Positions 1,332 through 22,955 of a stretch of DNA of 26,166 nucleotides are shown in pieces (the stretch's first letter is position 1; every line of letters begins with the position of its first letter). The stretch lies in NCBI GenBank assembly GCA_045863855.1, contig BTVV01000084.1, forward strand, positions 1 to 26,166. Reading direction: 5' to 3'. Under the pieces are notes generated by a model. It worked only from the letters and a program-made list of their open reading frames with translations. It ran no database searches and was not told the origin of the DNA. Origin of the DNA: Planctomycetota bacterium (GTDB taxonomy: Bacteria > Planctomycetota > SZUA-567 > H5-PLA8). The position numbers and the translations under genes are program-made.

Positions 1332-2663
1332 TCATGTGTATCGTATCCGCTGGTGTTGCGGGAGGTAAAATTCCGGGAGTAGCCAGTCCACGACCAACAG
1401 CCCCTTCCTCGTCAGCCGTACCGATTCAGGTGCGAGCGTCAGAAAGCCTTCTTGAAACATGCGTTGCAGCGGAACTTGCAAAAGCAGTTGCAGGTCGAGG
1501 CCGAACTTGCGGTTTAAGCCTTGCGTGTCCACGCATCCGGTCTTGAGTTGCAGAACGAACTCTCGCCGTAGCCGTTCCTCGGAGGACATACCGTACGCGC
1601 GCCGCAGCGGCAGGGCACCTTCTGCGCAGCGGTTCAGGTACTCCTCGTACGTATCCACGTTCTGATAGTGAAAGTCTTGCAGTAGGCCGAACGCCGATTC
1701 TCCCAGCGCCAGCAGTTCATGGCCCTTCCAGTAATGCTCGGTCACGTAGGCGAATCTCGGTCGGGTGGCGTCGCGAACCGCCCAGTAGGCACCGTAAATC
1801 GTGTAGCCCGCTTTCTCCAAGCGCTCGAAAGCCGTATTCACCCATTGCCGTTTTGAAGACCAACTCGGCAGCGACAGAATCAGTCCTTTCTCCAAAGCTC
1901 CCAAGAGGACGGAGTTGTGGGTCAACTCCAGTTGATATACGGTGACACTGTCCGGGCTCAGATGCGCAACTTTTTCGAGCGTCGCGTTCCAAGTGGCCTC
2001 TTCCTCGCCCGGAAGCCCCGCGATCAGGTCGATATTCACTTCGTCGAACCCCACGCGGCGCGCCAGCTGGTAGGCTTCGAGACAGTCCTTCGTGCCGGCG
2101 TTGCGGCCGATTCCGCGGAGCACCTCGTCGCTCAGTGATTGCATGCCGATCGAAGCACGTGTCACGCCCGACGCGCGCAGCAGTTCCAACTTCTCCCGAT
2201 CCACCGTGCCGGGCTGGCATTCGAAGGTGACCTCCGAAGCGCCACGCCAAGGATACAGGGCTTGCAGACCCGCCACGAGCCGCTCAATTTGAGCGCACGT
2301 CAGAAGACTGGGCGTTCCGCCGCCGAAGTACGCGTTCGACACGGGACGGCCCACCGACGCTGGACGCTGGGCGTATAGCGAAGCTTCGGCAAGCAACGCA
2401 TCCACGTAGCGTTCTACCTCCGCAGCCGGCCTTCGGGAGTGGACCCTGAAGTAACAATACATGCAGCGTTGCCTACAGAAGGGGACGTGCACGTAAAGCG
2501 ACAGCGGGCCCCGATCGTGCGGCGACTGCAGCGCTCGCTCGAACTCGGGAACCTGTTGCGGCGACCATGCGGAGTACGGCGGATAGTTCGAAACGAAGTA
2601 ATTGCCCGTTTCCGTACGTTCCGGAAGTGCGATCATGGGCATTGACCGATTCGAATCGTTCAT
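1332..2663 (-). CDS. hemN: HemN/HemW-family radical SAM protein (oxygen-independent coproporphyrinogen III oxidase-like)
   Basis: LYVHVPFCRQRCMYC (CxxxCxxC), YFGGGTPS, RASIGMQS, NIDLIAGLPG and a HemN_C-like tail (LTRKGLL). GGAGGT lies 4 nt before ATG 2663; the ORF extends to 2681. Confidence 0.8.
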   Translation of the reverse strand: MNDSNRSMPMIALPERTETGNYFVSNYPPYSAWSPQQVPEFERALQSPHDRGPLSLYVHVPFCRQRCMYCYFRVHSRRPAAEVERYVDALLAEASLYAQRPASVGRPVSNAYFGGGTPSLLTCAQIERLVAGLQALYPWRGASEVTFECQPGTVDREKLELLRASGVTRASIGMQSLSDEVLRGIGRNAGTKDCLEAYQLARRVGFDEVNIDLIAGLPGEEEATWNATLEKVAHLSPDSVTVYQLELTHNSVLLGALEKGLILSLPSWSSKRQWVNTAFERLEKAGYTIYGAYWAVRDATRPRFAYVTEHYWKGHELLALGESAFGLLQDFHYQNVDTYEEYLNRCAEGALPLRRAYGMSSEERLRREFVLQLKTGCVDTQGLNRKFGLDLQLLLQVPLQRMFQEGFLTLAPESVRLTRKGLLVVDWLLPEFYLPQHQRIRYT

Positions 2664-2753
2664 GACGACCTCCATGGGCAAAGGCTTCCGTTACCTGCTC
2701 GATCCAGCTTCTGCTATCGGTCCACGGAGATTTGCCATAGATGTGGGACGGCG

Positions 2754-4397
2754 TCAGGATCGAACCGGCGATGCATGTACCATGCGGCGCATTCGACCAA
2801 GGATAGGCGCATCGCTTTCCGATCCGACGACGGCTTCAATCAGGTAAGGCGCCTGGGACTGCTCGGCGCGCTCCCACTCGTCTTCCAGATCCCCGACCGT
2901 CAAGGCACGCCCGGCTTGGCAACCCATGGATCGCGCAAGGGCTGGATAGTCCCAAGGTCGAAGCGCGTAATAAGGCCGCGGTTCGTCCAACGCCTCGAGT
3001 AATCCATAAGTACCGTTGTTAAGCAGCAGGACGATTGGGGCCACCCCCGCATCTTGCGCGGTGCCCAGTTCCGCGCCCGTCATGCGAAACGCGCCGTCGC
3101 CCACGAGCACGAGCGGCCGCCTATCGGGTTGGGCCAGGGCTGCGCCGAGGGCCGCGGGAATGCCGTAACCCATAGTGGCGTAGAAGCCCGAAGCCAGGAA
3201 GACCTGCGTGGGCAATTCCAGCCCCGCGAACCACGCGTTGCCCACGTCCGCGATGACGCTGTACCGAGAGAGGTCGCGCATGCGTAGGACTTGAACGACG
3301 TCCTCGACTTCTAGCTTCTTCCCTTTTTCGATTCGGTAAGGGCGCGCAGGTGTGGCTCGGTACCAGAGGATCCGCTCTCCCGCGGGCCGGACGGCCGAAA
3401 GTGCTCTCATCATCTCGACGATTGGCGTGTGTAAGAAGCGAATCTCGCCGACACTGGTCGAACATTCGTCTATCGAGACCAACATGCGCGGATTCCATGC
3501 GCTGGGCCCGAATCCGGCATTCACGTCGCTGGGGATGACGCCCACTCGGATCAGACGGTCGCTTCCTTCCACGACCTCGCGCGCGCCGGCGTCCCCCAGG
3601 GCGCCCATGTAAACACCTGCGTACAATGGATGCCGCTCGGGGAAGGTCGCTTTGCCCATGACGCTCGATACCACGGGCAGGCTCCACGCTTCGGCAAACT
3701 TCACTACCTGATCCACTAACCGATGCCTTTGTACCCACACGCCCACATAAAGCGCCGGTCGCTTAGCGGCTTCCAGCAGCCGGGCCACGTCGGACGAGGC
3801 CTTCTGAACCGTCGAAGCGTCGTAGCGTGGAAGTCTTGGAGGCGAGCGTCGTGGCATGCATGTTCGCGCGATCGGACGGGCAACCATATCCCGCGGTATC
3901 TCCAGGTACCCGGGCCGCTTCCAGGCCAGAATCTCGTCAATGACCCGGTCAATTTCGCCCGCCGCCGAATCCAGGTTATTGAGCACGGCTTGCGAGCAGG
4001 TGATCTCCCGGAATACCCGGTACGAACTCTCGAAACTCTTTACCATGTGATGGACTTGTTGGAATTCGCTACGCGAGTTAAGGTCTGGCGCTCCGCTGAT
4101 CACCAGGACCGGACTCTTTTCCGCATAGCTCATGGCCACGGAGTTGACCACGTTGAGCGCGCCGGCCCCATACGTAACCACCACCACGCCCAGGGGACGA
4201 AGCCGAGCGTAGGCATCGGCCGCGAACGCGGCGCCGGGCTCGTGCGCGCAGACCACCGTGGTCATTCCGGCTTCCGCCTGCGCACGGTAAAGGGGTAGGA
4301 CGAAGTCGCCCGGAATGCCGAACGTGGTTGTCACGCCTGCCATGCGCAGATGCCCAAACAGGTATGCGCCGAGAGTCAGTTCGCTAACAGCGGCCAT
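2754..4397 (-). CDS. ThDP-dependent 2-oxoacid decarboxylase (indolepyruvate/phenylpyruvate/pyruvate decarboxylase family)
   Basis: FGIPGDF, HEPGAAFAADAYAR, VTYGAGALN, ISGAP, VHH, and the ThDP motif GDGAF...LNNGTYG. Confidence 0.85.
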   Translation of the reverse strand: MAAVSELTLGAYLFGHLRMAGVTTTFGIPGDFVLPLYRAQAEAGMTTVVCAHEPGAAFAADAYARLRPLGVVVVTYGAGALNVVNSVAMSYAEKSPVLVISGAPDLNSRSEFQQVHHMVKSFESSYRVFREITCSQAVLNNLDSAAGEIDRVIDEILAWKRPGYLEIPRDMVARPIARTCMPRRSPPRLPRYDASTVQKASSDVARLLEAAKRPALYVGVWVQRHRLVDQVVKFAEAWSLPVVSSVMGKATFPERHPLYAGVYMGALGDAGAREVVEGSDRLIRVGVIPSDVNAGFGPSAWNPRMLVSIDECSTSVGEIRFLHTPIVEMMRALSAVRPAGERILWYRATPARPYRIEKGKKLEVEDVVQVLRMRDLSRYSVIADVGNAWFAGLELPTQVFLASGFYATMGYGIPAALGAALAQPDRRPLVLVGDGAFRMTGAELGTAQDAGVAPIVLLLNNGTYGLLEALDEPRPYYALRPWDYPALARSMGCQAGRALTVGDLEDEWERAEQSQAPYLIEAVVGSESDAPILGRMRRMVHASPVRS

Positions 4398-4787
4398 GTC
4401 ACATTCCGATCAGTTTAAGCCAGATGGGTAGTACGCAGCAACGCTATGAGCACCCCTCTGTCTTAAACGAGAAGGCTCTATTTGGTGGTTCGGACGTCAC
4501 GAGTCTTCTTTATTCAAAACACCTCCCTAGCTCGGAATCCCCATGACTACCGTCGGGCAATAAGAATGAAAGTAAGGCACGCCTATAAGAATATAACTGG
4601 ATAGACTTATCTTGTATAGCAAATAAAGTTGAGCGAATACAAAATGCATACGGGTTGAGAAGTCGCACCCTGTGTGAGCGAACAAGCAACAACAGGGGCT
4701 ACCGGCAAAGGGTGGGATCCGATGGCCGTATATTGGGAGAGGGAAGAACTTACGCTTCCGCAATTTAGTTCTCCACCAGAAATTCTG

Positions 4788-4809
4788 TTCTTTGTTCTAG
4801 CGCAAAGAA
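4788..4809. promoter_or_regulatory. Crp/Fnr-family (NnrR-type) binding site
   Basis: Perfect inverted repeat TTCTTTG-ttctagcg-CAAAGAA (TTG-N8-CAA; right half CGCAAAG matches the NnrR consensus). Centre 4798.5, about 30 nt upstream of a TATCAT -10 element. Confidence 0.75.
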
Positions 4810-4828
4810 GCCAAGCCCTCGCATCGCG

Positions 4829-4834
4829 TATCAT
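4829..4834 (+). promoter_or_regulatory. -10 element of a class II Crp/Fnr-activated promoter for the split-barrel gene and ric
   Basis: TATCAT implies a start near 4840-4841, which puts the 4788-4809 box at about -41.5/-42.5. Confidence 0.55.
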
Positions 4835-4900
4835 GCCGTTGGGATACCAACGGCGTGCGCGGGATCGTCGTCCGCGGAAGGCAGGGCCAAAGGAGATCCG

Positions 4901-5452
4901 ATGGAGCCGATGCGTCTCGAGGAGATTGCGGAATTGCTCGAACATGCGCTGCTCGGGCGCTTGGGCATGGCTGCTCGGGACGGCACGCCTTACGTCATTC
5001 CCATGCCGTTCTGCTGGTATGACGGTGCTCTCTATTTGAGGTTGCCCGGGACCGGACGGAAAGGACGCGTGATGGCCGAGAATGACCGCGTCTGCTTCGA
5101 GGTAGACTGGTTCGCCCCGGACCTGAGCGACTACGCTTCCGTCATCGCGGAGGGGCGGTTAGTCCCCGTGGTAGATGCGCAAGAGAAGATGCGAATCCGG
5201 CGGCTTAACGAGATCAAATATTGTCGATTGCGGGGGTCCGCGCGGAAAGGCCACGGCCGCACAACCCGAATCGAAGACCTATGCTTGTCGAAAATTGAAA
5301 TTTCGGAGCTCGGTGGACGCAAAAAGGAAGCGGCTGCCGACGAGTCGTTCGACGCCTCACGTCGTGGTGCCAAAGGCTGCCCGCTTTGCGGCACTGGAAA
5401 GCGCAGGAAGCCTAAGATCGCCCCCAAACGGCCCAGTACAACAGGAGATTAA
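4901..5452 (+). CDS. Pyridoxamine 5'-phosphate oxidase/NimA-like FMN-binding split-barrel protein
   Basis: AGGAG RBS at 4891-4895; GRLGM...PYVIPM, GRKGRVMAENDRVCFEVD, YASVIAEG; basic C-terminal tail containing CPLC. Confidence 0.75.
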   Translation: MEPMRLEEIAELLEHALLGRLGMAARDGTPYVIPMPFCWYDGALYLRLPGTGRKGRVMAENDRVCFEVDWFAPDLSDYASVIAEGRLVPVVDAQEKMRIRRLNEIKYCRLRGSARKGHGRTTRIEDLCLSKIEISELGGRKKEAAADESFDASRRGAKGCPLCGTGKRRKPKIAPKRPSTTGD

Positions 5453-5456
5453 CGTC

Positions 5457-6170
5457 ATGCACGCCTTCCAGGCTCAAGAACTTGTCGGAAGCATCGTGGC
5501 GCGGCACCCTGCCCTATCACGCGTCTTCGAGCGCGCGGGAATTGACTACTGTTGCGGCGGCAAGCGGACTCTTGAGGAGGCTTGTCGAAGCAAGGGAATC
5601 GATACGGAGGAGATCCTCTTGCGCTTGGACGCGGCGACCAAGAGCGAGGGGAACGAGCCACAAGTAGCCAGCATGTCGCTCTCCGAACTCACTAACCACA
5701 TTGAGAGCGTCCACCACGCCTATCTGCGCGCCGAACTGCCTCGCCTCGACGCGATCACCGCCAAAGTGGCTTCGGTGCATGGCGAATCCGAACCCCGCCT
5801 GAGGGAAATCCGAAGCGTATACGAAGACCTGATGCAGGAAATATACGCGCATATGCTCAAGGAAGAGCAGGTTTTGTTTCCTATGGTTCGCGCCCTTGAA
5901 TCGGGGTCCGCTTCGGCGTGCTTTACATGCGGTACGCTGGAGCACCCGATACGCCAGATGGAACACGAGCACGAATGGGTCGGAAATGCGCTTCAAAGTC
6001 TGCGTCGGCTAAGTGGAGACTACACGCCGCCGGACTGGGCCTGCAACACCTACCGCGCCATGTTGGACGGACTCGCTCATTTGGAGCGCGATTTCCACCA
6101 GCATATCCATAAAGAGAACAACGTACTGTTTCCGCGCGCATCGGATTTGGAGAGACGAAGAAGCGCCTGA
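5457..6170 (+). CDS. ric: Iron-sulfur cluster repair di-iron protein (RIC/YtfE/ScdA/DnrN)
   Basis: AGGAG at 5443-5447, ATG at 5457. N-terminal GIDYCCGG (ScdA_N) and hemerythrin motifs HHAYLR, HMLKEEQVLFP, MEHEH, HIHKENNVLFP. Confidence 0.93.
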   Translation: MHAFQAQELVGSIVARHPALSRVFERAGIDYCCGGKRTLEEACRSKGIDTEEILLRLDAATKSEGNEPQVASMSLSELTNHIESVHHAYLRAELPRLDAITAKVASVHGESEPRLREIRSVYEDLMQEIYAHMLKEEQVLFPMVRALESGSASACFTCGTLEHPIRQMEHEHEWVGNALQSLRRLSGDYTPPDWACNTYRAMLDGLAHLERDFHQHIHKENNVLFPRASDLERRRSA

Positions 6171-6183
6171 ACGGCGTTCAGGC
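6165..6183. terminator. Palindrome containing both convergent stop codons (ric and nnrR)
   Basis: GCCTGAACG-G-CGTTCAGGC with perfect 9-bp arms; no U-tract. Confidence 0.35.
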
Positions 6184-6879
6184 ATGCAAAGGCCGGTCGT
6201 CCTCTGCAATCGAGCGAAGTACCGATGGGTCGTGGACCTTGATGCGACGCCTGGCGGACTCGATCCAGCCCTGCTGCCGCCAGCCGGACAAGATACGGCT
6301 TACGGTATGCAGCGTCGTGCCCGTTAAATCAGCCAAGTCCTGCCGCGAAACGGGAAATGCGATCTCCACGCCGTGTCTGTCGGCCTTCCCCGACTTTTCG
6401 GCTAGGCGGAGCAACGCACGCGCGACGCGGCGTTCGACGCGTTCGGTCGCCAGCTCAAGATACCTAGAGCGAACCATTGCCAGTTCTTCGCCTAGTAATT
6501 CAAGTGCGTTCAGCGCCACGCGAGGAAAGCACTCTAGCATGCGATATAGCGCATCTCGATCCCACGCCAGCACCACGCTCGGGCTTACGGTCGTTGCTGT
6601 GGCCGGGTACCGATGGCTTCTGTACAGCAGGACGCAGCCGAACATCTCCTCGGGCCCGACGTACCGATTGAGGATCTGGTGTCCATCGGGGGACGACTGT
6701 GCGACTTTGAGACGCCCCCGAAGCAGAACGTAGCTCCAACGCGCCTCTTGGCCTTGTCGAAATACCACCTCGTTCGCGCCTTTTTTCTTATAGGTCGAGC
6801 CTTCATAGACCGCTCGAAGCTGGTCGGGGTCCAGACCCTGAAACAGTGGAACCTTCGCTAGCGAGCGCAGACCTTCCAT
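6178..6879 (-). CDS. nnrR: Crp/Fnr-family transcriptional regulator, NnrR type (putative NO sensor)
   Basis: cNMP-like domain (PLFQGL, VFRQGQ, YPATA), VERRVARALLRL, and HTH SRQDLADLTGTTLHTVSRILSGW as in NnrR. No FNR-type N-terminal Cys cluster. Start uncertain: ATG 6879, ORF open to 7011. Confidence 0.8.
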   Translation of the reverse strand: MEGLRSLAKVPLFQGLDPDQLRAVYEGSTYKKKGANEVVFRQGQEARWSYVLLRGRLKVAQSSPDGHQILNRYVGPEEMFGCVLLYRSHRYPATATTVSPSVVLAWDRDALYRMLECFPRVALNALELLGEELAMVRSRYLELATERVERRVARALLRLAEKSGKADRHGVEIAFPVSRQDLADLTGTTLHTVSRILSGWRQQGWIESARRRIKVHDPSVLRSIAEDDRPLHA

Positions 6880-7270
6880 GTCGACGTGCAATGGCACTCT
6901 CCGGTTCTCAGGCTCAGGCAGCTCCGGGCATGACGTGCCGACTTCTTTAACAGCCGGAGCCACGAACCTTAGCCTACGAAATCGGAATAGAGAATGCGAG
7001 CGGACCATCACCTTCTAACCAAGCAAGCGATGCCTAATAGCTCGTTGAATATGAGTACGAGAGCCATGCCTGGGGGAGGTGGCCCTCATCAAGGGAAGCG
7101 AAGGGAATTATTGTGACGACCGGAGCCCAGCACTTTTTCCAAAGACGCAACGGCTGCGAGAGTAAGCCTTTGCGAAGCATTTACTGCGTAAGAAAGGCTT
7201 TTGTATTTGCATAAAGAGATATGTAGGTATATTAATTCCATATAGACGTTCTTCGACAAGGAGCGCACGC

Positions 7271-8158
7271 ATGCAGCGAAGTATTGGAATCCGAGCGAGG
7301 GCCTTGGCGTTCTCCTTGATGGCGCTGAGTTTAGCGAATTTGAGCGGGTGCGGGGGATCAAACGGAAAGGCCTCGAACCAGCCAAAGCCTTCATCCGGCA
7401 AGAGTACATCGGCCCCCGCTACCCCGGTCGTACCAAATGAGGCAAAGCCTGTGGCCACTCCCCCCGTTTCATCCAGTAGCGTGGGTGCCTTTCCGGAAGG
7501 GAAGGCAACGACCCTATTGACAGGGGTGGTTCGGTTGGAGGGAGCGGCCCCCGAACGAAAGCCGATTCGGACGGACAACGACCCCGTATGTCAAAAGATG
7601 CATGAAGGGGCGCCTTTACTAGACGAGGTCATTATCGCCGGTGCGGGCGGTGAACTCGCCAATGTGCTTGTTTTCGTTTCGACTGGGCTTGAGTCCTATA
7701 CGTTTGATGCTCCGGACGACGTTCAAGTGCTCGACCAGAAGGGCTGTCAATACGTCCCACGCGTATTCGGGGTGATGGTCGGGCAACCGATCAAGATTCG
7801 GAACAGCGATACGACCATCCATAACGTCAACTGCCAAGCCAGTGAAAACCTGCCGTTTAACCTAAGTCAGGCGCAGAAGGGCATGGAGACGGAGAAAGTC
7901 TTTGAAGATCCCGAGATGCCCTTGACCTTCAAGTGCGACGTTCACCCTTGGATGCGCGCGTATGGAGGCGTCTTCACGCACCCGTTCTTTGCAGTTTCGA
8001 AAATGGACGGCAGTTTTCAATTCCCGCGCAAGCTCATCCCTGGCGAGTACACGCTTACGGCCTGGCACGAAAAACTTGGCAAGATCGAGATCCCGGTCAG
8101 CGTGAAAGGCGGCGACTCGCACAAAGTGGAACTTCGTTTCAAAAACCAGCCGAAATGA
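7271..8158 (+). CDS. Lipoprotein with a cupredoxin-like domain and carboxypeptidase-regulatory-like beta-sandwich
   Basis: AAGGAG RBS; lipobox LSGC (Cys codon 7349-7351); Pro/Ser-rich linker; DPVC, DQKGCQY, HNV and CDVHPWM (type-1 Cu-like His/Cys/His/Met); PGEYTLTAWHE. Confidence 0.65.
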   Translation: MQRSIGIRARALAFSLMALSLANLSGCGGSNGKASNQPKPSSGKSTSAPATPVVPNEAKPVATPPVSSSSVGAFPEGKATTLLTGVVRLEGAAPERKPIRTDNDPVCQKMHEGAPLLDEVIIAGAGGELANVLVFVSTGLESYTFDAPDDVQVLDQKGCQYVPRVFGVMVGQPIKIRNSDTTIHNVNCQASENLPFNLSQAQKGMETEKVFEDPEMPLTFKCDVHPWMRAYGGVFTHPFFAVSKMDGSFQFPRKLIPGEYTLTAWHEKLGKIEIPVSVKGGDSHKVELRFKNQPK

Positions 8159-13460: not shown

Positions 13461-13814
13461 ATGCCCTACGACGAGCCTGATGCCAGCGATCCGTTGGAGG
13501 CCATGGCAGTCGAGCTTCCGGCTACTCGTGAAGCTTGGCGCGATATGGCGTGCTGTTTCGCGGAGGAATTCGCGCGGCTGGGCTTTGGAGTCGAGCGCAT
13601 CCGGCTCCTCTTTGAAACGCCTTTCTACCAGGGTCCCTTCAGGGCTAGGCAAGTGCTGGGCAAAGCCGAAATCGAGGCCCTGATCGCCGAAGCGCTGTTT
13701 CTTTTCGGACGACCCAAGCCTGAAATTCAGGATGCGCCCGAAGATGAGATACTGGAAAACGCGGACCCATTTCCGCCGGCCGGCCCCTGTGAGGTTCGGA
13801 CGTTGGGCGATTAA
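13461..13814 (+). CDS. Small acidic protein of unknown function between nxrA and nxrB
   Basis: Strong RBS (AAGGAGGAG); fills the A-B gap; core DPLEAMAV...MACCFAEEFARLGF...LFETPFYQGP; no signal peptide. Confidence 0.75.
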   Translation: MPYDEPDASDPLEAMAVELPATREAWRDMACCFAEEFARLGFGVERIRLLFETPFYQGPFRARQVLGKAEIEALIAEALFLFGRPKPEIQDAPEDEILENADPFPPAGPCEVRTLGD

Positions 13815-13860: not shown

Positions 13861-15129
<1,269 letters not shown>

Positions 15130-15152: not shown

Positions 15153-15929
15153 ATGAAAACCGAAGGCTTACGAGCACGCGCTCGCGCGCATCTCTATGGA
15201 TTCCTTGCCCGGGCATTCCGGAGTGAAGATGAAACGTTCGGCGAAGCGTTGGACTCTGGCGGTTGCCGGACGCGCTTGGCTTCTGCCGCCGCCGTTCTGG
15301 ATCCCGCGAACCTCGCGGAACCCGTGCGTCGCGTTCTGTGCGCCGCCGAGCAGTCCAAACGCGAGGAACGCGAATCCGCCCGAATCCGTGCTTTTGGCTT
15401 CACCCTGCGTGGTACCGTGCCTCCATACGAACTGGAATACGGGCGGAGCGACGTGTTCCAAATGTCGCAGGAACTGGCCGACTTGGCTGGCTTCTATCGC
15501 GCATTCGGAATGGAAATGGATCCCGAGTCGAACGAACGCGCCGACCATATCGCCGCCGAGCTTGAATACATGTTGCTGCTCTGTGCACACCAGACGCAGG
15601 CCGAGGAGGAGGCCGAGCACGAGGGGCTCGAACACCTTGCGGTATCCCAGGACGCGCAGCGTAAATTCCTCCGCGATCACCTGGGATGCTGGGGCATCGG
15701 CTTCGGACGCAGGATGGCGGCTTTTGAGGCTGGAAGCTTCTTGGGCGAATGCGGAACGCTGCTGGCGGAGTTTCTGGCGAACGATTGCCGGGCGCTCGGA
15801 GTTGCGCACGGACCGCAGCACCTTGAGCTAAGGGAAACCGGCTCCGCCGAAGAACTGATCGCCGCGCAGAATTGTGACGCGTCATTGGCCACGCAGGACG
15901 GCGGCGGTAACGAAGCCGAGGCGGGCTAA
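15153..15929 (+). CDS. nxrD: TorD/DmsD/NarJ-family maturation chaperone
   Basis: GGAGG RBS; PPYELEY, LAGFYRAFG, ERADHIAAELEYM, FLRDHLGCW. Confidence 0.88.
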   Translation: MKTEGLRARARAHLYGFLARAFRSEDETFGEALDSGGCRTRLASAAAVLDPANLAEPVRRVLCAAEQSKREERESARIRAFGFTLRGTVPPYELEYGRSDVFQMSQELADLAGFYRAFGMEMDPESNERADHIAAELEYMLLLCAHQTQAEEEAEHEGLEHLAVSQDAQRKFLRDHLGCWGIGFGRRMAAFEAGSFLGECGTLLAEFLANDCRALGVAHGPQHLELRETGSAEELIAAQNCDASLATQDGGGNEAEAG

Positions 15930-15932: not shown

Positions 15933-16871
15933 ATGCGATTCGAGTTTGAGCCTGCATTCGTCGAAGAGGCAGTCTTCATTGCGATGCGCAGTGCTTCCAC
16001 GACCGCTTCCGATAGTGCTGCGTACAACAGCGAACGCGAATCGGTTTACGCCCTTCAGGACGCCGAGGCTCGGGATCGGGCGTTTACTTCGCTCCATACG
16101 CGCTGGTTTGCCCGTCAGGGACTCGAGAAACCTCTGAAAGCGCTCCTAGCCGAGCGCCGGGGGCTAGAAACACGCTTGAATCGATTCCTTGTGTGCTTGG
16201 CCTACCGAAGCAAAGAGGAGGGTGTGGAACTATTCGGGGCTGCTTCGGAACCGACTCCAGTGTTTCGCGCTGCGCTTCGGCTCAAGGTGGAGACTCTACT
16301 GAATACTTCCGTGCTCGAACGCTTGGTGCGTCATGAACTGATGCATTTGGCCGACATGCTGAATCCTGTATTCCGATTCGATCCCCATCCACGCTTCCCT
16401 GGAGCCACTGCGGCGCAACAGGGTTTGGTTCATGACCGCTTTTCGTCTCTTTGGGATCTGCGAATTGATGCGGCTCTCTTCCACGAAGGAGTGGAAGGGG
16501 AGATGCCGCGCGAGGGTCACGCCCGTCGATTGTGGCGCGCTTGGAATGGGGGTGCCTGGGTGAGCGAATTGGTGGATCGAAGCTTTGACGGTCAGGTGCT
16601 GGATCCCTACGACTGTCCGGCGCTTCTTCAGTTCGCTGCCGATGGCAACCGCTTGGTCGATTGCCTTGGGTTGCGAACGTGCGAATTGCCCGTGGCGACC
16701 ACTGCAATGCCATGTCCGGTCTGCGGCTTTCCCTCGCGATCCTGGTCAACGCATCCGGAGCGACTGCCGGAAGAGATTCAGGCAGAGATTCGAGCGAAAC
16801 ATCCGGGCTGGAGCGCGGCTCAAGGTTTGTGCATCCAATGCGAGGAAATGGTGCAGGCCGCGCTGCGCTGA
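15933..16871 (+). CDS. Hypothetical protein with HExxH zincin-like motif and C-terminal Cys4 zinc ribbon
   Basis: Starts 3 nt after the chaperone stop; LVRHELMHLADML; CPVCGFP...HPGWSAAQGLCIQC. Confidence 0.7.
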   Translation: MRFEFEPAFVEEAVFIAMRSASTTASDSAAYNSERESVYALQDAEARDRAFTSLHTRWFARQGLEKPLKALLAERRGLETRLNRFLVCLAYRSKEEGVELFGAASEPTPVFRAALRLKVETLLNTSVLERLVRHELMHLADMLNPVFRFDPHPRFPGATAAQQGLVHDRFSSLWDLRIDAALFHEGVEGEMPREGHARRLWRAWNGGAWVSELVDRSFDGQVLDPYDCPALLQFAADGNRLVDCLGLRTCELPVATTAMPCPVCGFPSRSWSTHPERLPEEIQAEIRAKHPGWSAAQGLCIQCEEMVQAALR

Positions 16872-16914: not shown

Positions 16915-18813
16915 ATGGAAGCCTCGATGAACCTCCCAGTTTGCGGACTCGCCGCCTCCGGTGTGCCCATTTCCCAGAACCAAACTATTCCCGAGGTCTT
17001 GCGGGCATGGCCGCAGCTGCGTTTGGTCCTGGACAAATACGGCCTAAAAGGATGCGGCGGACCGCTGGGTCCGGAAGAGTCGATCGAGTTTTTTGCACGC
17101 GCGCACGGAGTGGATTCGAGCGAGTTGTTGCGTGAGTTGAACGAGATGCGCGGACAGACCTCTACGCAATCGCCGCCCGTCTACCAACCCGGCTTGGGCG
17201 ATACGATCTATCGAAATTTTTTCCTGGGTGCTATTTCGGTGCTTCTGAGCGCCGGGGCCGTTTGGGGAGCACTGCTACTTTTGAAAATTGGCTTTGCGCA
17301 GGACTTTACGATCAATTCGATCTTTGCCGTGAACGCACATGGCCACGCGATGATCTTCGGATGGGTAGGGCTATTCGTCATGGGCTTTGCGTACCAAGCC
17401 TTTCCGCGGTTCAAGCACGTGGAACTGCACCGTCCTCGGCTGGCCGTCGCAACCTTCTGGATGATGTTTGCGGGCATTTCGGCGCGGGCGCTCTGCGAAA
17501 CGCTTCACGAGCGGAGTTCCTGGCTGTGGGCCGGGGCGCTGTTGGCGTGCACCCTGGAAGTCGCCGCGATTCTCATCTTTGTCTGGCTACTGGTTGCTAC
17601 GTATCGGAAAAGCGGGAAATCGGTGGAAACCTACGATAAGTACGTATTTGCTGCACTGGGATTTTTCGTACTGCAGGCTTTTGGAGACGCGGTCCTGCTG
17701 ACGGCCACGACGACGGCACCCACGGACGCCGCGTTACTGGAGCGAATAAAAACTCTTCAGGCACCGCTGCGCGATCTTCAGATTCACGGCTTTGCCGTGC
17801 TGATGATTTTGGGCGTATCGTTGCGCCTGCTGCCCACCGTGTACGGAGTAGCTGCGGCGGATGGCCGCAAGTCTGATCGGGTGCTGATTCCAATTGCGGC
17901 AGCGGTTTTGGCCGAGGCAGGTTTCTACCTTCTAAATGCGCGCTCCCCTGGGACCGCTTGGGCTTCCGCAGGCTTGTACGCTTCGATGCTTGCCTATGCG
18001 GGCTTGGTAACGTGGCTGATCGGCAGTATGCGTGTATTCGTAGCCGATGAGCAAACCGATCGCAGCGTGAAGTTCATCAAAGCAGCGTACGCATGGCTCC
18101 TTATCTCGCTGGCCATGCTCATCGTCATGCCTGCCTACTTGGGATGGTATCGCGGGGCAACCGGAAGCGGGTTTTCACACGCGTACTACGGTGCCACGCG
18201 CCATGCGATCACGGTTGGTTTTATCAGCATGATGATCTTGGGTGTTTCCGCAAAGGTGGTGCCTACGCTTTGTGGGATCTCGTCCGCTCGGTTGGGGGAG
18301 TTGTGGCCTACTTTCGTTCTCGTGAATACCGGTTGCGCGCTGCGAGTTGCTTTTCAGGTGCTTACTGACGTTGAAGGATTTAAGGAATTCGCGCATCCGG
18401 TGGCTGGAATTTCCGGTGTACTGGAAGTTACTGGAATGGCCTTTTGGGCGGTTCACATGTGTCGACTTCTGCTCGGCACACGCGTCGGATCGGCTGCCGA
18501 GCCGGAGCGAAAACCAGACCTGGCGTTGCTGAGGATCGAGGCAACCTCCAAGGTGGGCTCGGTCATCGGCCTATTTCCCCAAACGCTGAGTGTGTTCCTG
18601 AATCACGGCTTCACGCTCCTGGCCAACGCCTACATGCGGGACACCTTGGCCCGCACGGTTTCTATCCAGCAGGCGTGCGAGATCCACAAAGTAGATCTAG
18701 AGGCGCTCCTGCATGACCTTAACAGGGTCGTATCCGCGCGACCTCCGAATGCTGAGCAGGCTTCTCTTTCGAGGGGAAAACGGCTGGAGGATGGCCTAGC
18801 GCAGCCTTTGTAA
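16915..18813 (+). CDS. nnrS: NnrS-like polytopic membrane protein with N- and C-terminal ScdA_N/DUF1858-like domains
   Basis: AAGGAG at 16903-16908, ATG at 16915. About 12 hydrophobic segments; AHGHAMIFGWVG..VMGF, DLQIHGF..MILGV, RHAITVGF..MILGV; terminal helical domains similar to the N-terminus of the RIC in this window. Confidence 0.7.
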   Translation: MEASMNLPVCGLAASGVPISQNQTIPEVLRAWPQLRLVLDKYGLKGCGGPLGPEESIEFFARAHGVDSSELLRELNEMRGQTSTQSPPVYQPGLGDTIYRNFFLGAISVLLSAGAVWGALLLLKIGFAQDFTINSIFAVNAHGHAMIFGWVGLFVMGFAYQAFPRFKHVELHRPRLAVATFWMMFAGISARALCETLHERSSWLWAGALLACTLEVAAILIFVWLLVATYRKSGKSVETYDKYVFAALGFFVLQAFGDAVLLTATTTAPTDAALLERIKTLQAPLRDLQIHGFAVLMILGVSLRLLPTVYGVAAADGRKSDRVLIPIAAAVLAEAGFYLLNARSPGTAWASAGLYASMLAYAGLVTWLIGSMRVFVADEQTDRSVKFIKAAYAWLLISLAMLIVMPAYLGWYRGATGSGFSHAYYGATRHAITVGFISMMILGVSAKVVPTLCGISSARLGELWPTFVLVNTGCALRVAFQVLTDVEGFKEFAHPVAGISGVLEVTGMAFWAVHMCRLLLGTRVGSAAEPERKPDLALLRIEATSKVGSVIGLFPQTLSVFLNHGFTLLANAYMRDTLARTVSIQQACEIHKVDLEALLHDLNRVVSARPPNAEQASLSRGKRLEDGLAQPL

Positions 18814-19954: not shown

Positions 19955-19980
19955 GTCCAAAATCCAGCCGGAATTGCCCG

Positions 19981-21099
19981 ATGCGATTGAAAGGAGAGCC
20001 CGTGCCGGATCTTCCATCTCTTGAGGACCTGGACCGAAATCCCTTCCTGGTCTTGTATGAGCTTACCCAAGCCTGCGATCTGGCTTGCCGACATTGCCGG
20101 GCAAGCGCGCAAGCGCTTCGTCATCCCGATGAGTTGACGGAAGAAGAGTCACGCCATTTCATTGATCAGTTGGCGGGCCTGTTTCCCCAGCCGCTCCTGG
20201 TCATGACGGGTGGAGATCCGTTCAAGCGCCCAGATCTGTATGCTTTGGTCCATCATGCCGTTCGTGCGGGCTTGCGGGTGGCGGTGACCCCCTCCGCCAC
20301 GGCGCAGGTGGACCGCTGGTCGCTCCTTCGCCTGCGAGATGAAGGCGTACGCCGATTGGCCGTGAGTATGGACGGTATCCGCGAGGCTACGCACGACGGC
20401 ATCCGAGGAGTCCCGGGAAGTATGGCGCGCACCCGGGAGATCGTTCAAATTGCACAGGAGATCGGCTTGCAGGTTCAGATCAACACCACCGTGTCCGTGC
20501 GCAATGTGGATGAATTGGAGGCCATGGCCGATTGCCTGGCTACCAGCGGCATCGTGCTCTGGTCCGTGTTTTTCCTCGTCCCGGTTGGACGCGGCGCCGT
20601 AGAGGAGCGCATTCCCGCCGCTCAATACGAGACCGTATTCGCGATGCTCTGGCGGAAGAGCCGGTTAGCACCTTTCGCGATCAAGACGACGGAAGCGCCT
20701 CACTTCCGCCGATTCGTGGCGCAGGCGCGGAACGGGAATGCGCGGGAGCCCCAAGCAACCGAAGCACGACCCCGGCCGCCTCTTGGCCTGAACGACGGGA
20801 AGGGCGTGGTTTTCGTGAGCCACACGGGTTTCATTTATCCCAGCGGATTTCTCCCCGTTTCCTGTGGCCGCGTTCCCCAAGATTCGCTACTGGAAGTCTA
20901 TCGTCATCACCCCGTATTCAGGGACCTGCGCGACCCGCGGCGGCTTAAAGGGAAGTGCGGCGTTTGCGAGTTCCGGGCGCTCTGCGGGGGCAGCCGTGCG
21001 CGCGCACATGCCGTAAGCGGCGATTACCTCGCGCCCGAGCCCGATTGCGTGTACCAGCCGGCGGCGTGGCAAGCCAAGGAGGGCGCATGCTTAACCTGA
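19981..21099 (+). CDS. Radical SAM/SPASM protein, AhbD-like (TIGR04053-type); candidate heme b synthase
   Basis: PFLVLYELTQACDLACRHCRASA, TGGDPF, WSVFFLVPVGRG, KTTEAPHFRR, NDGKG, IYPSGFLP, CGVCEFRALCGGSRARA...EPDCVY. Confidence 0.75.
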   Translation: MRLKGEPVPDLPSLEDLDRNPFLVLYELTQACDLACRHCRASAQALRHPDELTEEESRHFIDQLAGLFPQPLLVMTGGDPFKRPDLYALVHHAVRAGLRVAVTPSATAQVDRWSLLRLRDEGVRRLAVSMDGIREATHDGIRGVPGSMARTREIVQIAQEIGLQVQINTTVSVRNVDELEAMADCLATSGIVLWSVFFLVPVGRGAVEERIPAAQYETVFAMLWRKSRLAPFAIKTTEAPHFRRFVAQARNGNAREPQATEARPRPPLGLNDGKGVVFVSHTGFIYPSGFLPVSCGRVPQDSLLEVYRHHPVFRDLRDPRRLKGKCGVCEFRALCGGSRARAHAVSGDYLAPEPDCVYQPAAWQAKEGACLT

Positions 21100-22277
21100 G
21101 TCATCTCTTGTGTGGACAGCGCAGCGGAAGCGAGGAACTTCGGTATGGGCACGTTCGCACAGCGCAGAGTAGCGGGGACCCCCCTCGCCCCGTCGTGGTC
21201 TGGGCGCTCACCCAGACCTGTAACCTTAAGTGCGTGCATTGCTACGCCTCGGCGGCCTCGGCGCCGGCGCCGGACGAACTGTCGCTGCACGAAGGCTTTG
21301 CGTTGCTAGAAGATCTCAAAGCCTTCGGAGTGCCCGCCGTGCTATTCAGCGGGGGCGAGCCTCTCGCTCGCCCCGATGCACTCCAGTTGATTGGTTATGC
21401 GCGCCGCATCGGATTAAACGCCACTCTTTCGACCAACGGTCTACTGATAGATGACAAGATGGCGGACAGCCTTGCTGACCTGGATCTTCGCTATGTGGGC
21501 ATCAGCTTAGATGGACGCAAAGATGTACATGACAGGCTGCGCGGCATGCGGGGCGCGTTCGACGGAACGCAGGCAGGCATTCGCCGATGCCAGGAACGAG
21601 GTCTAAAGGTCGGCCTGCGTTTCACCGTGCACGCATTGAATCTTCAGGACCTTGATTTCATTTTCGATTTCTGTCTGGAGCAGGGCATTCAACGACTGTG
21701 TATCTACCATCTTGCCTACGCGGGGCGGGGAAAGCAGTTTCGTCGATACGACCTAGAACCGAACCGGTCGAGGAGCGTGGTTGAGCGGATCATGCATCGT
21801 GTCGTTCAAGCAATAACCGAGGGCCATAAGCTGGAGGTGCTTACCGTGGCTAACCATGCTGACGCGGCCATGGCACTGCTCTGGCTCGAACGCTATCGCC
21901 CCGAGAGGCTCGAGGAAGCTGAGCGGCTGCTTCGGGGAACGGGTGGGAACCGTTCCGGATGCCATATTGCTTCTATCGGGCCGCGTGGTTCTGTGCATTA
22001 CGATCAGTTCAGTTGGCATTACAGCGTTGGAAACGTGCGCCGGGAGCCGTTTAGCCAAATCTGGACCGAGGCGCGCGACCCTCGTATGGCCATATTAAGA
22101 GACCGCCAGGCTCACCTCCCCGCGCGCTGTCGGGCGTGCCGATTCCTGACGGTCTGTAACGGGAATCTCAGGACACGGGCCGAGTCTGCCACCGGCGATT
22201 GGTTAACACTTGATCCGGCCTGCTACCTCGATTCAGAGGAATGTGCAACAATCGAAAGTACTCACGTCTCGGAATAA
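21087..22277 (+). CDS. ahbC: AhbC/NirJ1-like radical SAM/SPASM protein (12,18-didecarboxysiroheme deacetylase-like)
   Basis: AAGGAGG RBS, ATG at 21087 overlapping the upstream gene; LCG...LRYG, PVVVW.LT..CNLKCVHCY, YVGISLDG, KVGLRFT, YHLAYAGRG, NHADA, DQF, CRACRFLTVCNGNLRTRA...DPACY. Confidence 0.8.
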   Translation: MLNLSHLLCGQRSGSEELRYGHVRTAQSSGDPPRPVVVWALTQTCNLKCVHCYASAASAPAPDELSLHEGFALLEDLKAFGVPAVLFSGGEPLARPDALQLIGYARRIGLNATLSTNGLLIDDKMADSLADLDLRYVGISLDGRKDVHDRLRGMRGAFDGTQAGIRRCQERGLKVGLRFTVHALNLQDLDFIFDFCLEQGIQRLCIYHLAYAGRGKQFRRYDLEPNRSRSVVERIMHRVVQAITEGHKLEVLTVANHADAAMALLWLERYRPERLEEAERLLRGTGGNRSGCHIASIGPRGSVHYDQFSWHYSVGNVRREPFSQIWTEARDPRMAILRDRQAHLPARCRACRFLTVCNGNLRTRAESATGDWLTLDPACYLDSEECATIESTHVSE

Positions 22278-22556
22278 CGTCGGTTCACCTTAAGATCCGA
22301 TGGCTTTGAGTCATTCCGGATTGCCACTGCGCTAGGTTCTGTCCCGAAAGTGGGTGAGAAGAAGCACGAATTAGCGTGGTTGCATACCGCAATCCAGTGC
22401 AAGCCAGATCGACGTACTGATTTTTTCAATGGTACGGTGTTTCCAGCAATGCGTGAAATTCGGCTGAAGCGGGAGAATGTAATCCCACCTGCCTCAAACA
22501 ACGGTGGATCGCGCGAGGCGACTTATTGAGAAATGTCTATGATGCAGCAGAGGGCA

Positions 22557-22578
22557 GATGACCTAAGTTTAGTTCATC
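22557..22578. promoter_or_regulatory. Putative operator palindrome upstream of the CMD-like gene
   Basis: GATGACCTAA-GT-TTAGTTCATC (9 of 10 positions symmetric), between a TATGAT (22538-22543) and the GAGGAG RBS. Confidence 0.35.
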
Positions 22579-22598
22579 AAGCATTGAGGAGACCTCCG

Positions 22599-22955
22599 AT
22601 GGGTAGACGAACGTCGCCGCTTCCCCGCCGCTACCTGGAAGCCCAAACGCGGTTTCCGCGGGTGCTTGAGGCATACGAACAGTTCGGTAAGGCGCTCGAA
22701 ACCGCGGGACCGCTTAGCAAGCGCGATCAGCGATTGGTGAAGCTTGGGCTTGCTTTTGGCGCCAAACTGGAAGGCGCGAGTCATTCCGCCGTCCGAAAAG
22801 GTATGGATGTGGGTCTAGCTCCTCGCGAACTAGAACACGCGGCGCTGTTAGCTATGACCACCTTGGGATTTGCGCATGGAATGACTTGTCTTTGCTGGGT
22901 ACAGGATGTTTCTCAGAAAAGCGCAAAAGGAAAGCGCGTACGCGGCAATTCGTGA
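22599..22955 (+). CDS. Carboxymuconolactone decarboxylase (CMD/AhpD-like) family protein
   Basis: GAGGAG at 22586-22591, ATG at 22599 (ORF open from 22533); AGPLSKRDQRLVKLGLAFG...SHSAVRKG...ELEHAALLAMTTLGF; no AhpD CxxC. Confidence 0.8.
   Translation: MGRRTSPLPRRYLEAQTRFPRVLEAYEQFGKALETAGPLSKRDQRLVKLGLAFGAKLEGASHSAVRKGMDVGLAPRELEHAALLAMTTLGFAHGMTCLCWVQDVSQKSAKGKRVRGNS

What the first reader, a model, noticed from the sequence alone, without database searches (positions are those of the whole stretch)
1332..22955. Self-contained, putatively NO-regulated periplasmic NXR-type module in an apparent polysaccharide degrader
Seen: one block holds nxrC-A-(orf)-B-D, a cupredoxin lipoprotein, moaA, three heme-related radical SAM genes, and NO-stress genes (nnrR, ric, nnrS-like), next to a heparinase-like lyase. 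Known: this NXR clade is characterised in lithoautotrophic nitrite oxidisers and anammox bacteria, whereas NnrR/NnrS regulons are characterised in alphaproteobacterial denitrifiers, where they control nirK/nor. Inference: a respiratory cassette giving a heterotroph either nitrate respiration with an NXR-type enzyme or mixotrophic nitrite oxidation. I know of no description of this combination, but could not search for one.
Basis: partly seen in the sequence, partly recalled or inferred. Interest (0 to 1): 0.85.

Follow-up and report, generated by a model that had tools for sequence, protein, structure and literature searches.

The report
Planctomycete nitrate-respiration locus with NO-stress genes
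A sugar-degrading, uncultured planctomycete carries a nitrite/nitrate-converting enzyme of the type used by anammox and nitrite-oxidising bacteria, packed together with nitric-oxide stress and cofactor genes; it most likely uses it to breathe nitrate, the enzyme cassette itself is widespread and already reported, and the claim that nitric oxide controls the enzyme genes is not shown.

Summary
The genes are real and intact. The core (dihaem-c/haem-b nxrC, nxrA, orf, nxrB, torD, orf) is an anammox/Nitrospira-clade periplasmic NXR with all Kuenenia cofactor ligands, but it recurs across many phyla (80 best loci; this scan noted it before on other DNA) and this enzyme clade is in print for non-anammox Planctomycetota and reactor heterotrophs. 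The host is a non-anammox planctomycete: no RuBisCO, ACS, ATP-citrate lyase, Hzs, NirK, NirS, NrfA or NosZ found; it has aa3 oxidase, two Rieske/cytochrome b modules, qNor and 16 heparinase-family matches. The lyase neighbour is incidental. The NnrR+RIC+NnrS-like trio was seen only in the window's own clade; a candidate NnrR box lies before pnpox-ric, not before nxr. Relatives have an Rrf2 regulator before nxrC, and 40 of 79 loci carry such redox/NO-stress genes. RNA-library contigs from three studies start just upstream of the cupredoxin-nxr operon. Best reading: periplasmic nitrate-to-nitrite respiration fed by complex III (0.6); mixotrophic nitrite oxidation (0.22) is not excluded. Added here: the NxrC dihaem resembles Kustc0457, partner of the anammox octahaem nitrite reductase.

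The parts
1332..2681 (-). HemN/HutW-like radical SAM protein (subfamily unresolved); peripheral
   Evidence: PF04055+PF06969; HutW 199.8/400, HemN 197.4/325 bits, below cut-offs; hit in 3 of 80 loci
2754..4397 (-). TPP-dependent 2-oxo-acid decarboxylase (IpdC-like); peripheral
   Evidence: three TPP domains; TIGR03394 370.9/554.5; also beside the cassette in G001
4790..4807 (.). candidate NnrR box CTTTG-N8-CAAAG, 93 bp before pnpox; centre about 42.5 nt before a start site inferred from a TATCAT hexamer at 4829-4834
   Evidence: consensus ctTTGcgnnnncgCAAag from PMC1274295; conserved in G002; motif not enriched genome-wide (3 exact sites against 3-8 for other spacers)
4901..5452 (+). PNPOx/NimA-like flavin-binding protein
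   Evidence: PF12900; beside ric also in G001 and G005
5457..6170 (+). RIC (YtfE/DnrN/ScdA) di-iron Fe-S repair protein
   Evidence: TIGR03652 248/204.7 bits; lies in the NXR locus in G000, G001, G002, G005, G007
6178..6891 (-). Crp/Fnr regulator of NnrR type (start codon uncertain, 6879-7011)
   Evidence: Pfam cNMP+HTH_Crp; 6 of the best 120 homologues named 'nitrogen oxide reductase regulator', GTTLHTVSR helix in 102 of 120; close copy only in G002 among 16 family genomes
7206..7233 (+). sigma-70-like promoter candidate of the cupredoxin-nxr operon
   Evidence: 2 found, 1.5 expected: not significant alone; RNA-library contigs of three studies begin at 7241, 7255, 7257
7271..8158 (+). lipoprotein with a type-1 copper (amicyanin/plastocyanin-like) domain
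   Evidence: lipobox LSGC27; H184, C222-x2-H225-x2-M228 conserved, motif pair in 118 of 120 homologues; model pLDDT 86, Foldseek hits amicyanin, plastocyanin and cupredoxin domains
8260..9897 (+). NxrC: N-terminal hydrophobic helix, dihaem cytochrome c (Kustc0457-like) fused to haem-b gamma subunit
   Evidence: CXXCH at 72 and 191; residues 58-270 match 6H5L_B E 4e-42, 323-543 match 7B04_C E 4e-20; M376/K533 align to Met155/Lys305 and are invariant in 40 rows
9931..13428 (+). NxrA, Tat-exported Mo-bisPGD catalytic subunit
   Evidence: 7B04_B 1713 bits; SRRRFL at 22; C84/N87/D88/C92 and D293 align to Kuenenia C67/N70/D71/C75 and D275
13461..13814 (+). conserved 117-aa orf of no known family
   Evidence: hit in 65 of 80 loci; no Pfam/NCBIfam match
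13861..15129 (+). NxrB Fe-S subunit
   Evidence: 7B04_A E 6e-179
15153..15929 (+). TorD/NarJ-type chaperone
   Evidence: PF02613 E 5e-18
15933..16871 (+). conserved 312-aa orf with HExxH and C-terminal CxxC...CxxC (putative zinc-binding maturation factor)
   Evidence: hit in 49 of 80 loci; HExxH in 28 and the Cys pairs in 36 of 50 homologous ORFs; Atlas: unnamed clusters, weak SprT-like lead only
16915..18813 (+). NnrS-like membrane protein with DUF1858 (hybrid-cluster-associated) domains
   Evidence: PF05940 E 1.6e-15, PF08984, TIGR03980; about 7 hydrophobic helices
18890..19954 (+). MoaA (second copy; a 58% paralogue is on C13)
   Evidence: TIGR02666 351.6/284
19981..21099 (+). radical SAM/SPASM protein, TIGR04053 family (AhbD/NirJ2-like)
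   Evidence: TIGR04053 428.6/395; AhbD 304.7/500
21087..22277 (+). radical SAM/SPASM protein, AhbC/NirJ1-like
   Evidence: NirJ1 414/650, AhbC 404.6/650, below cut-offs
22533..22955 (+). CMD/AhpD-like protein; last gene of the block
   Evidence: PF02627 E 1e-4; hit in 9 of 80 loci

Best explanation
An anoxia-use respiratory locus of an organotrophic planctomycete. The operon from 7271 encodes a Tat-exported NXR-type enzyme run as a periplasmic nitrate reductase: quinol from sugar oxidation is oxidised by one of the host's Rieske/cytochrome b modules (C13 or C18), electrons pass via the co-transcribed cupredoxin lipoprotein and/or the fused dihaem c to haem b, the Fe-S chain and Mo, and nitrate is reduced to nitrite, which is mostly released. 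Downstream genes supply Moco and haem maturation. The NO and nitrite met in this niche are handled by a separate small unit, pnpox-ric, probably activated by the adjacent NnrR-type regulator, by the NnrS-like protein, and by qNor on another contig. Shown: gene identities, ligands, linkage, host gene inventory, presence in RNA libraries. Inferred: direction, electron path, regulation.
For: No CO2-fixation marker found in G000 (93.9% complete) or G001, G002: RuBisCO, CdhC, ATP-citrate lyase. 16 heparinase II/III-family matches and other CAZymes. This is the only NarG/NxrA-type gene found in G000, and a NasA/Fdh-type query finds only two Fdh-like genes. In 79 other loci a cytochrome b gene lies within the flank in 7 and a haem-copper oxidase subunit I of aa3 type in 0; G000's C13 cytochrome b and octahaem are 74% and 67% identical to such NXR-adjacent genes. 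Two paralogues of the cupredoxin lie in the complex III/oxidase-assembly cluster on C18. Redox/NO-stress genes lie in 40 of 79 loci, an Rrf2 gene directly before nxrC in 16. Kuenenia NXR reduces nitrate in vitro (Vmax 1.5 umol/min/mg with methyl viologen, against 61 nmol/min/mg for nitrite oxidation with ferricyanide; PMC8387239). Precedent: T. terrifontis, a polysaccharide degrader that respires nitrate, has a deep-branching narG next to bc1 genes (10.1101/179903) and is placed in this clade (PMC10732223). No cytochrome bd-family hit, whereas a bd-like oxidase belongs to the gene set shared by Nitrospira, Nitrospina and Kuenenia (PMC3578206).
Against: Sequence cannot give the direction; the enzyme is bidirectional. 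G000 has an aa3 cytochrome c oxidase with a CuA motif, so nitrite to O2 is wired too. No canonical nitrite reductase was found, so the cell's own NO source is unclear. PF01654 may miss the divergent bd-like proteins of nitrite oxidisers. The neighbour counts used queries drawn from the same loci, kin are not independent, and the control was one genome (1.7% of random windows). The in vitro rates use artificial donors and acceptors. The NnrR box motif is not above chance by count.
Confidence: 0.6

Rival explanations
1. Mixotrophic (lithoheterotrophic) nitrite oxidation: NXR takes electrons from nitrite, the dihaem c and cupredoxin pass them to the aa3 oxidase, giving extra proton-motive force while carbon comes from polysaccharides; or both directions in turn as oxygen cycles.
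For: Same clade and ligands as the nitrite-oxidising enzyme; periplasmic orientation; aa3 oxidase with CuA; holders are bioreactor, wastewater and sludge RNA runs; proposed on genome grounds for 19 Planctomycetota MAGs (PMC10732223) and for reactor heterotrophs (PMC9306079, PMC7814187).
Against: No carbon fixation found; single copy; no aa3 subunit I in 79 loci, no bd-family hit; companions are anoxia/NO-type genes; the published proposals, in the passages I read, rest on gene presence only.
Confidence: 0.22
2. Anammox-like nitrite coupling in a heterotroph: NXR oxidises nitrite and its fused Kustc0457-like dihaem hands the electrons to the host's HAO-like octahaem (C13), which reduces nitrite to NO; qNor then respires the NO with quinol. 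NO would be a true intermediate, explaining the NO-sensing genes.
For: Dihaem domain's best solved relative is 6H5L_B (E 4e-42), the partner of the octahaem that reduces nitrite to NO (PMC8042395); an unknown partner linking NXR-C haem b to the NO-forming reductase is postulated in PMC8387239; the C13 octahaem's best solved relatives are 4QO5 and 6H5L_A; it lies in NXR loci in 3 of 79 cases; qNor present.
Against: The octahaem has its own Rieske/cytochrome b operon, so quinol can feed it; it occurs in G004, G012, G013 without this NXR and was not found in NXR-bearing G005; it is a very common protein (7,990 hits); the reaction is slightly uphill (+0.42 against +0.38 V, values) and a sugar oxidiser has no shortage of reductant; lack of the Tyr cross-link was not tested.
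Confidence: 0.08
3. One reading: one NO-induced regulon in which NnrR directly switches on the nxr operon (direction aside).
For: nnrR is divergent from the nxr operon; an imperfect TTTG-N8-TAAA site lies at 7200-7215; RIC stays beside the cassette in all 5 family genomes with this NXR.
Against: That site overlaps the predicted -35 element, not an activator position; nnrR was not found in G001, G005, G007, and G001 and G007 have an Rrf2 gene before nxrC instead; no TTTG-N8-CAAA site in the G002 stretch holding the qNor promoter, which has its own divergent Rrf2.
Confidence: 0.2
4. Another oxyanion (chlorate, perchlorate, selenate) is the physiological substrate.
For: Type II DMSO-reductase family members are promiscuous (established knowledge); a chlorite-dismutase-like domain exists in G000.
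Against: 1713 bits to NXR-A against about 203 to the next solved family member; the Cld-like hit covers half the model and is fused to an aldo/keto reductase on another contig.
Confidence: 0.04

Closest known systems
Kuenenia stuttgartiensis NXR-ABC (PDB 7B04; Chicano et al. 2021, PMC8387239, passages read)
   Same: A, B and haem-b C subunits with the same FS0 (3Cys/1Asp), Mo (Asp), substrate (Asn) and haem b (Met/Lys) ligands; Tat export
   Different: C is fused to a dihaem cytochrome c and comes first; host is not anammox; neighbours are NO-stress, Moco and haem genes rather than the 15-gene anammox cluster
Putative NXR clusters of non-anammox Planctomycetota MAGs (Suarez et al. 2023, PMC10732223) and of PNA-reactor heterotrophs (PMC9306079; PMC7814187), passages read
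   Same: same NxrA clade in organisms without anammox; direction undetermined; norB, hao and oxidase genes often co-occur
   Different: the passages read give no NnrR/RIC/NnrS/Rrf2 linkage or promoter analysis; supplements and figures not seen
Thermogutta terrifontis nitrate reductase (THTE_1506-1512; bioRxiv 10.1101/179903, passages read)
   Same: polysaccharide-degrading planctomycete respiring nitrate with a deep-branching enzyme next to bc1 genes
   Different: order A-B-C-TorD without dihaem subunit; has NrfAH for nitrite; its sequence was not compared here
alt_NxrC of Nitrospira and Nitrospina (PMC6606698, PMC3578206, passages read)
   Same: haem-b gamma domain combined with c-type haems
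   Different: there encoded apart from nxrAB with a bd-like oxidase; here it is the only gamma gene and heads the nxr genes
NnrR regulon of alphaproteobacterial denitrifiers (PMC1274295, passages read)
   Same: NnrR-type regulator, matching box core, nnrS, hemN and dnrN/ric-type members
   Different: core targets nirK and norCB not found; qNor has its own Rrf2; box only before pnpox-ric
Kustc0458/Kustc0457 octahaem nitrite reductase complex (PDB 6H5L; PMC8042395, passages read)
   Same: the NxrC dihaem is homologous to Kustc0457; the host has an HAO-family octahaem
   Different: dihaem is fused to NXR-C; octahaem is a distant relative in a Rieske/cytochrome b operon; interaction unknown

Membership tests
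Periplasmic NXR (anammox/Nitrospira clade, type II DMSO reductase) | NxrA homology, FS0 3Cys/1Asp motif, Mo-ligand Asp, substrate Asn | tested here: met
   CSPNDTHAC in 69 and CAPNDTHNC in 2 of 71 near-full-length rows
Periplasmic NXR | twin-arginine export signal on NxrA | tested here: met
   SRRRFL at residue 22; PF10518 E 4e-4, just under its cut-off
Periplasmic NXR | NxrB Fe-S subunit, haem-b gamma subunit with Met/Lys ligands, TorD chaperone | tested here: met
Periplasmic NXR | oxidises nitrite in vivo | not testable with these tools
   needs physiology
Periplasmic NXR (anammox form) | tubule subunit NXR-T | not tested
   no monohaem candidate among the window's ORFs; genome not searched for it
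Anammox bacterium | hydrazine synthase, hydrazine dehydrogenase, many HAO paralogues, Wood-Ljungdahl pathway | tested here: not met
   HzsBC best 54 of 1250 bits (no positive control over cut-off); one PF13447 protein, 59 of 900 bits to HDH; no CdhC
Chemolithoautotrophic nitrite oxidiser | CO2 fixation by CBB or rTCA | tested here: not met
   RuBisCO 0 of 5 genomes; ATP-citrate lyase domain not in G000, rings in 2 of 17; 3-HP routes not tested; genome 93.9% complete
Chemolithoautotrophic nitrite oxidiser (pNXR type) | conserved bd-like oxidase cluster | tested here: inconclusive
   PF01654 not found in G000, G001, G002, G007, but the model may miss divergent bd-like proteins
NnrR | Crp/Fnr protein of the NnrR branch | tested here: inconclusive
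   homologue names and conserved helix fit; no tree against characterised NnrR; Tyr93 of PMC8510549 not aligned (a YPAT motif lies at about residue 91-95)
NnrR regulon | ctTTGcg-N4-cgCAAag box before target genes | tested here: inconclusive
   outer 10 bases perfect and 12 of 14 in all at 4790-4807 before pnpox-ric; only an imperfect site before the nxr operon; counts not above chance
NnrR regulon | nirK and nor as core targets | tested here: not met
   no NirK match in G000-G002; qNor unlinked, with its own Rrf2 and no box in G002
Ahb/HemN haem biosynthesis enzymes | score above the curated family cut-offs | tested here: inconclusive
   nearest families are AhbC/NirJ1, AhbD, HutW/HemN but all below cut-off; only TIGR04053 above; ahbAB not searched
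Type-1 cupredoxin | His/Cys/His/Met site on a cupredoxin fold | tested here: met

The most novel reading that the evidence does not exclude
The widespread dihaem-NxrC fusion is the missing electron carrier between NXR and an octahaem nitrite reductase, and this planctomycete (with many other uncultured heterotrophs) runs the front half of anammox chemistry without hydrazine: nitrite is oxidised to nitrate and reduced to NO at once, NO being sensed by NnrR/Rrf2 and respired by qNor to N2O. Such cells would be cryptic, oxygen-independent nitrate and N2O producers in anammox reactors.
Probability: 0.08. Interest if true: 0.85.

Novelty: new variant of a known kind. Interest (0 to 1): 0.38.

Why it matters
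Hundreds of uncultured heterotrophs carry this enzyme and are scored as either nitrite oxidisers or nitrate reducers in wastewater and groundwater surveys; the direction changes how nitrogen budgets of partial-nitritation/anammox reactors are read (nitrite supply to anammox against unwanted nitrate formation). This locus gives concrete handles: a defined operon start, an organism whose nxr RNA is present in several reactor metatranscriptomes, a candidate NnrR box, a clade-wide Rrf2 link and named electron partners. The genes themselves are ordinary members of known families, so the value is in testability, not in a new kind of system.

Tried and rejected
Lyase as part of the module: rejected (GC3 at the 88th percentile against 1-15 for the block). 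Chimeric contig: rejected for 1-22950; the junction beyond rests on G000 alone. Recent horizontal arrival of the nxr core: not supported, the five rows of the family form one clade (SH-like 100) in kinship order (FastTree, 72 rows, backbone unresolved, no Nitrospira/Nitrospina rows, outgroup on a long branch), although only 6 of 62 class genomes have NxrB and the region is low in GC3. FNR box scan: 5 matches against 6.2 expected. NnrR-core scan with 2 mismatches: 5 against 3.5 expected. An Rrf2 operator common to the loci: GATA-N4-TATC exact in 2 of 23 upstream regions, no dyad in more than 4: not established. Single-sequence fold of the lipoprotein failed (pLDDT 34); repeated with an alignment. 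Complex prediction of NxrC dihaem with the C13 octahaem gave no answer (score 0.00): no evidence either way. NirS: only YVTN-like propeller hits, E >= 8e-9, partial. NosZ: not found in G000; the first search had no positive control, the phylum search rang in 6 of 121. NarK: no match over cut-off in 17 genomes. Hcp not found in G000. Class-level name of the host not obtained: the tools give codes only. Literature searches returned no paper describing an nxr locus with nnrR/ric/nnrS; the library lacks most subscription papers, I read passages only and no supplements.

Full report
1. Observation. The window is the whole contig C84 of a 6.93-Mb, 287-contig genome, 93.9% complete, 1.5% contaminated, GC 63.8%. 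NxrA scores 1713 bits against Kuenenia NXR-A and about 203 against the next solved family member; C84/N87/D88/C92 and D293 align with the Kuenenia FS0, substrate and Mo ligands named in PMC8387239. NxrB matches 7B04_A at E 6e-179. The gene before nxrA is a fusion: a hydrophobic N-terminal helix, a dihaem cytochrome c whose best solved relative is 6H5L_B (E 4e-42), and the haem-b gamma domain with the Met/Lys ligands. 6H5L_B is the dihaem partner Kustc0457 of the anammox octahaem nitrite reductase (identification of the chain from the complex described in PMC8042395, and my recall of the PDB entry). The lipoprotein is a type-1 cupredoxin. RIC and MoaA pass their curated cut-offs; the three other radical SAM proteins are nearest to HutW/HemN, AhbD and AhbC/NirJ1 but pass only TIGR04053. 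The Crp/Fnr protein looks like NnrR by homologue names (6 of 120) and its recognition helix (102 of 120).

2. Boundaries and host. G002 (same genus, 3.26-Mb contig) is collinear with window 1-22950 at 96-98% and then continues into IS-rich DNA without the lyase. The right edge is therefore real and the lyase is an incidental neighbour: G000 has 16 heparinase II/III-family matches and none of 80 NXR loci carries this lyase. The left edge is not a compositional edge: GC3 is in the lowest 15% for all 13 scored genes from 19 to 22277, including the uroD-like gene, and stays low in the adjoining contig C131. The block is not self-sufficient: moeA, mobA, mogA, tatC, the Rieske/cytochrome b modules and qNor are elsewhere. 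The nearest named loci are Planctomycetota. Not found in G000: RuBisCO, CdhC, ATP-citrate lyase, HzsBC, NirK, NrfA, a convincing NirS, NosZ, Hcp, cytochrome bd, a NarK over cut-off. Found: one aa3 oxidase with CuA motif (C73), qNor (C77; whole in G002 with a divergent Rrf2), Rieske/cytochrome b/eight-haem cluster with haem a and Sco genes and two cupredoxin paralogues (C18), Rieske/cytochrome b/HAO-like octahaem (C13), two Fdh-like genes. The host is a facultatively aerobic organotroph, neither anammox nor an autotrophic nitrite oxidiser, with the caveat of 6% missing genome.

3. How common is the arrangement? In these, nxrC was hit in 74, the 117-aa orf in 65, nxrB 63, torD 55, the 312-aa orf 49, many misses being contig ends; all 46 full-length NxrC ORFs have two CXXCH motifs. 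Hosts are labelled Planctomycetota, Omnitrophota, Binatia, Acidobacteriota, Myxococcota, Verrucomicrobiota, Latescibacterota and others, and one anammox-lineage MAG (L077). Eight earlier notes of this scan reached the same view of the core; I had tested it before reading them. The accessory genes are far less fixed: nnrS-like 6, crp 5, ric 3 of 80 with the window's proteins as queries, and all three together only in L001, which belongs to the window's own clade and is no independent support. With wider queries taken from the loci, 40 of 79 loci (25 of the 37 of at least 18 kb) hold an Rrf2, hemerythrin, Crp or NnrS-like gene, against 1.7% of random G000 windows; an Rrf2 gene stands directly before nxrC in 16, a cytochrome b within the flank in 7, the octahaem in 3, qNor in 1, an aa3 subunit I in 0. 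The queries are circular and the rows related, so this is a pattern, not a test. Within the family, close NxrA orthologues are in G001, G002, G005, G007 (76-99%), a distant type in G010 (39%) and a fragment in G009; 6 of 62 class genomes have NxrB. The family rows form one clade in kinship order. RIC sits in the NXR locus in all five; a close nnrR only in G000 and G002; G001 and G007 have Rrf2 before nxrC. NnrR is thus a late, lineage-specific addition to an older cassette.

4. Regulation and expression. One site fits the published NnrR consensus (PMC1274295) well: CTTTG-TT-CTAG-CG-CAAAG at 4790-4807, conserved in G002, with its centre about 42.5 nt before a start inferred by eye from TATCAT at 4829-4834, an activator position for this family (recalled). 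It points at pnpox-ric. By count it is not above chance. Before the nxr operon there is a sigma-70-like promoter (7206-7233; 2 found, 1.5 expected) overlapped by an imperfect site. No box was found in the G002 stretch holding the qNor promoter. Eighteen RNA or probable-RNA runs of 11 studies hold part of the stretch, the best being bioreactor, wastewater and sludge runs. Of four laid, three give long contigs that begin at 7241, 7255 and 7257 and run through the cupredoxin and nxrC into or beyond nxrA (to 14052, 10732, 13973), and contigs beginning at 4866-4881 over pnpox-ric; the fourth gives short pieces. These are assembled contigs of near-identical strains, no DNA run was laid, and the host uroD-like gene is covered too, so this is a weak hint of two transcription units, not a measure of level or induction.

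5. Mechanism. Best reading (0.6): periplasmic nitrate respiration. Quinol to Rieske/cytochrome b, to cupredoxin and/or dihaem c, to haem b, Fe-S, Mo, nitrate to nitrite; type-1 copper sites of this kind usually lie below the nitrate/nitrite couple (recalled), which makes this the downhill direction. Moco and haem genes follow; RIC, NnrS-like, CMD-like proteins and qNor protect against NO and nitrite in an anammox-type habitat. Thermogutta terrifontis is a cultured precedent. Rival 1 (0.22): nitrite oxidation to the aa3 oxidase, or switching. Rival 2 (0.08): coupling of NXR to the octahaem through the Kustc0457-like domain, the link postulated for anammox in PMC8387239; the octahaem's nearest solved relatives are 4QO5 and 6H5L_A, but it has its own quinol link and occurs without NXR in three family genomes. 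The separate claim that NnrR drives nxr gets 0.2.

6. Against what is known. NXR-like genes of this clade are reported in 19 Planctomycetota MAGs (PMC10732223), in seven reactor MAGs of which six lack carbon fixation (PMC9306079), in an Armatimonadetes heterotroph (PMC7814187) and in aquifer MAGs (PMC9562985); c-haem-bearing gamma subunits and cupredoxin and zinc-finger companions are described for Nitrospina and Nitrospira (PMC3578206, PMC6606698); an NnrR homologue is described in a Nitrospira MAG (PMC8510549). For all papers I read search-returned passages only, no supplements or figures, which may hold gene maps that bear on novelty; PMC12758564, PMC13608581 and 10.64898/2026.07.10.737647 were also checked in passages and added nothing decisive. 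Ten library searches and two word look-ups in earlier scan notes gave no description of an nxr locus with nnrR/ric/nnrS, of the Rrf2 link, or of the Kustc0457 likeness.

7. Verdict. Real, intact, apparently expressed; a member of a known and widespread enzyme cassette with a lineage-specific bundle of NO-stress and cofactor genes. New variant of a known kind; interest 0.38.

Noticed in passing
G000:C77 (L135 1-2599), L166, L108 2751-5368: qNor is followed by a broken PNPOx-like remnant and a halogenase-like FAD gene in G000/G002; the same kind of FAD gene lies between pnpox and ric in G001, hinting that the qNor and pnpox-ric units were once one cluster.
   Followed up: partly
window 4600-4616 and L109 upstream of the lipoprotein gene: Shared GATA-N4-TATCTTGTA, overlapping predicted promoters; possible Rrf2 operator, but not general across loci.
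   Followed up: partly
window 23218-23403: A 50-190-bp repeat with 8 other copies in G000, several at contig ends, lies at the junction between the block and the lyase.
   Followed up: partly
window 19-1293; L107, L134, L147: The left neighbour is a cluster of UroD-family, corrinoid-binding, RACo, MTHFR and pterin-methyltransferase genes (a probable demethylation system), next to the NXR block in both G001 and G002.
   Followed up: no
L077: An anammox-lineage MAG (titled Ca. Anammoxibacter) has the dihaem-fused nxrC directly before nxrA, as in the heterotroph cassette.
   Followed up: no
G010:C97 (L113, L114): A second NXR-like type (39% to the window's NxrA) in order Rieske-cytochrome b-multihaem c-A-B-C-TorD-moaA-mobA-moeA, like the order described for T. 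terrifontis.
   Followed up: partly
G013:C497 1631-4994: The HAO-like octahaem lies directly beside hcp, suggesting nitrite/hydroxylamine reduction or NO defence.
   Followed up: no
G000:C8 (L165 5382-7208): Aldo/keto reductase fused to a half chlorite-dismutase/ChdC domain, also in G001, G002, G007.
   Followed up: partly
G000:C56 (L160 3774-6357): A third cupredoxin-lipoprotein paralogue beside a dihaem peroxidase/MauG-like gene and Fur.
   Followed up: no
L058: A Verrucomicrobia locus with NXR, full RIC, qNor, cytochrome b and a TTTG-N8-CAAA site: an independent NO-linked NXR locus worth a look.
   Followed up: no
L016, L017, L036, L050, L054, L069: BadF/BcrAD ATPase and 2-hydroxyacyl-CoA dehydratase-family genes (benzoyl-CoA reductase-like) flank the cassette in 5-6 loci, another sign of anaerobic organotrophy.
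   Followed up: no
G000:C7 19933-38981: Two ten-haem and one three-haem cytochrome c genes with a cytochrome c assembly gene, function unknown.
   Followed up: no
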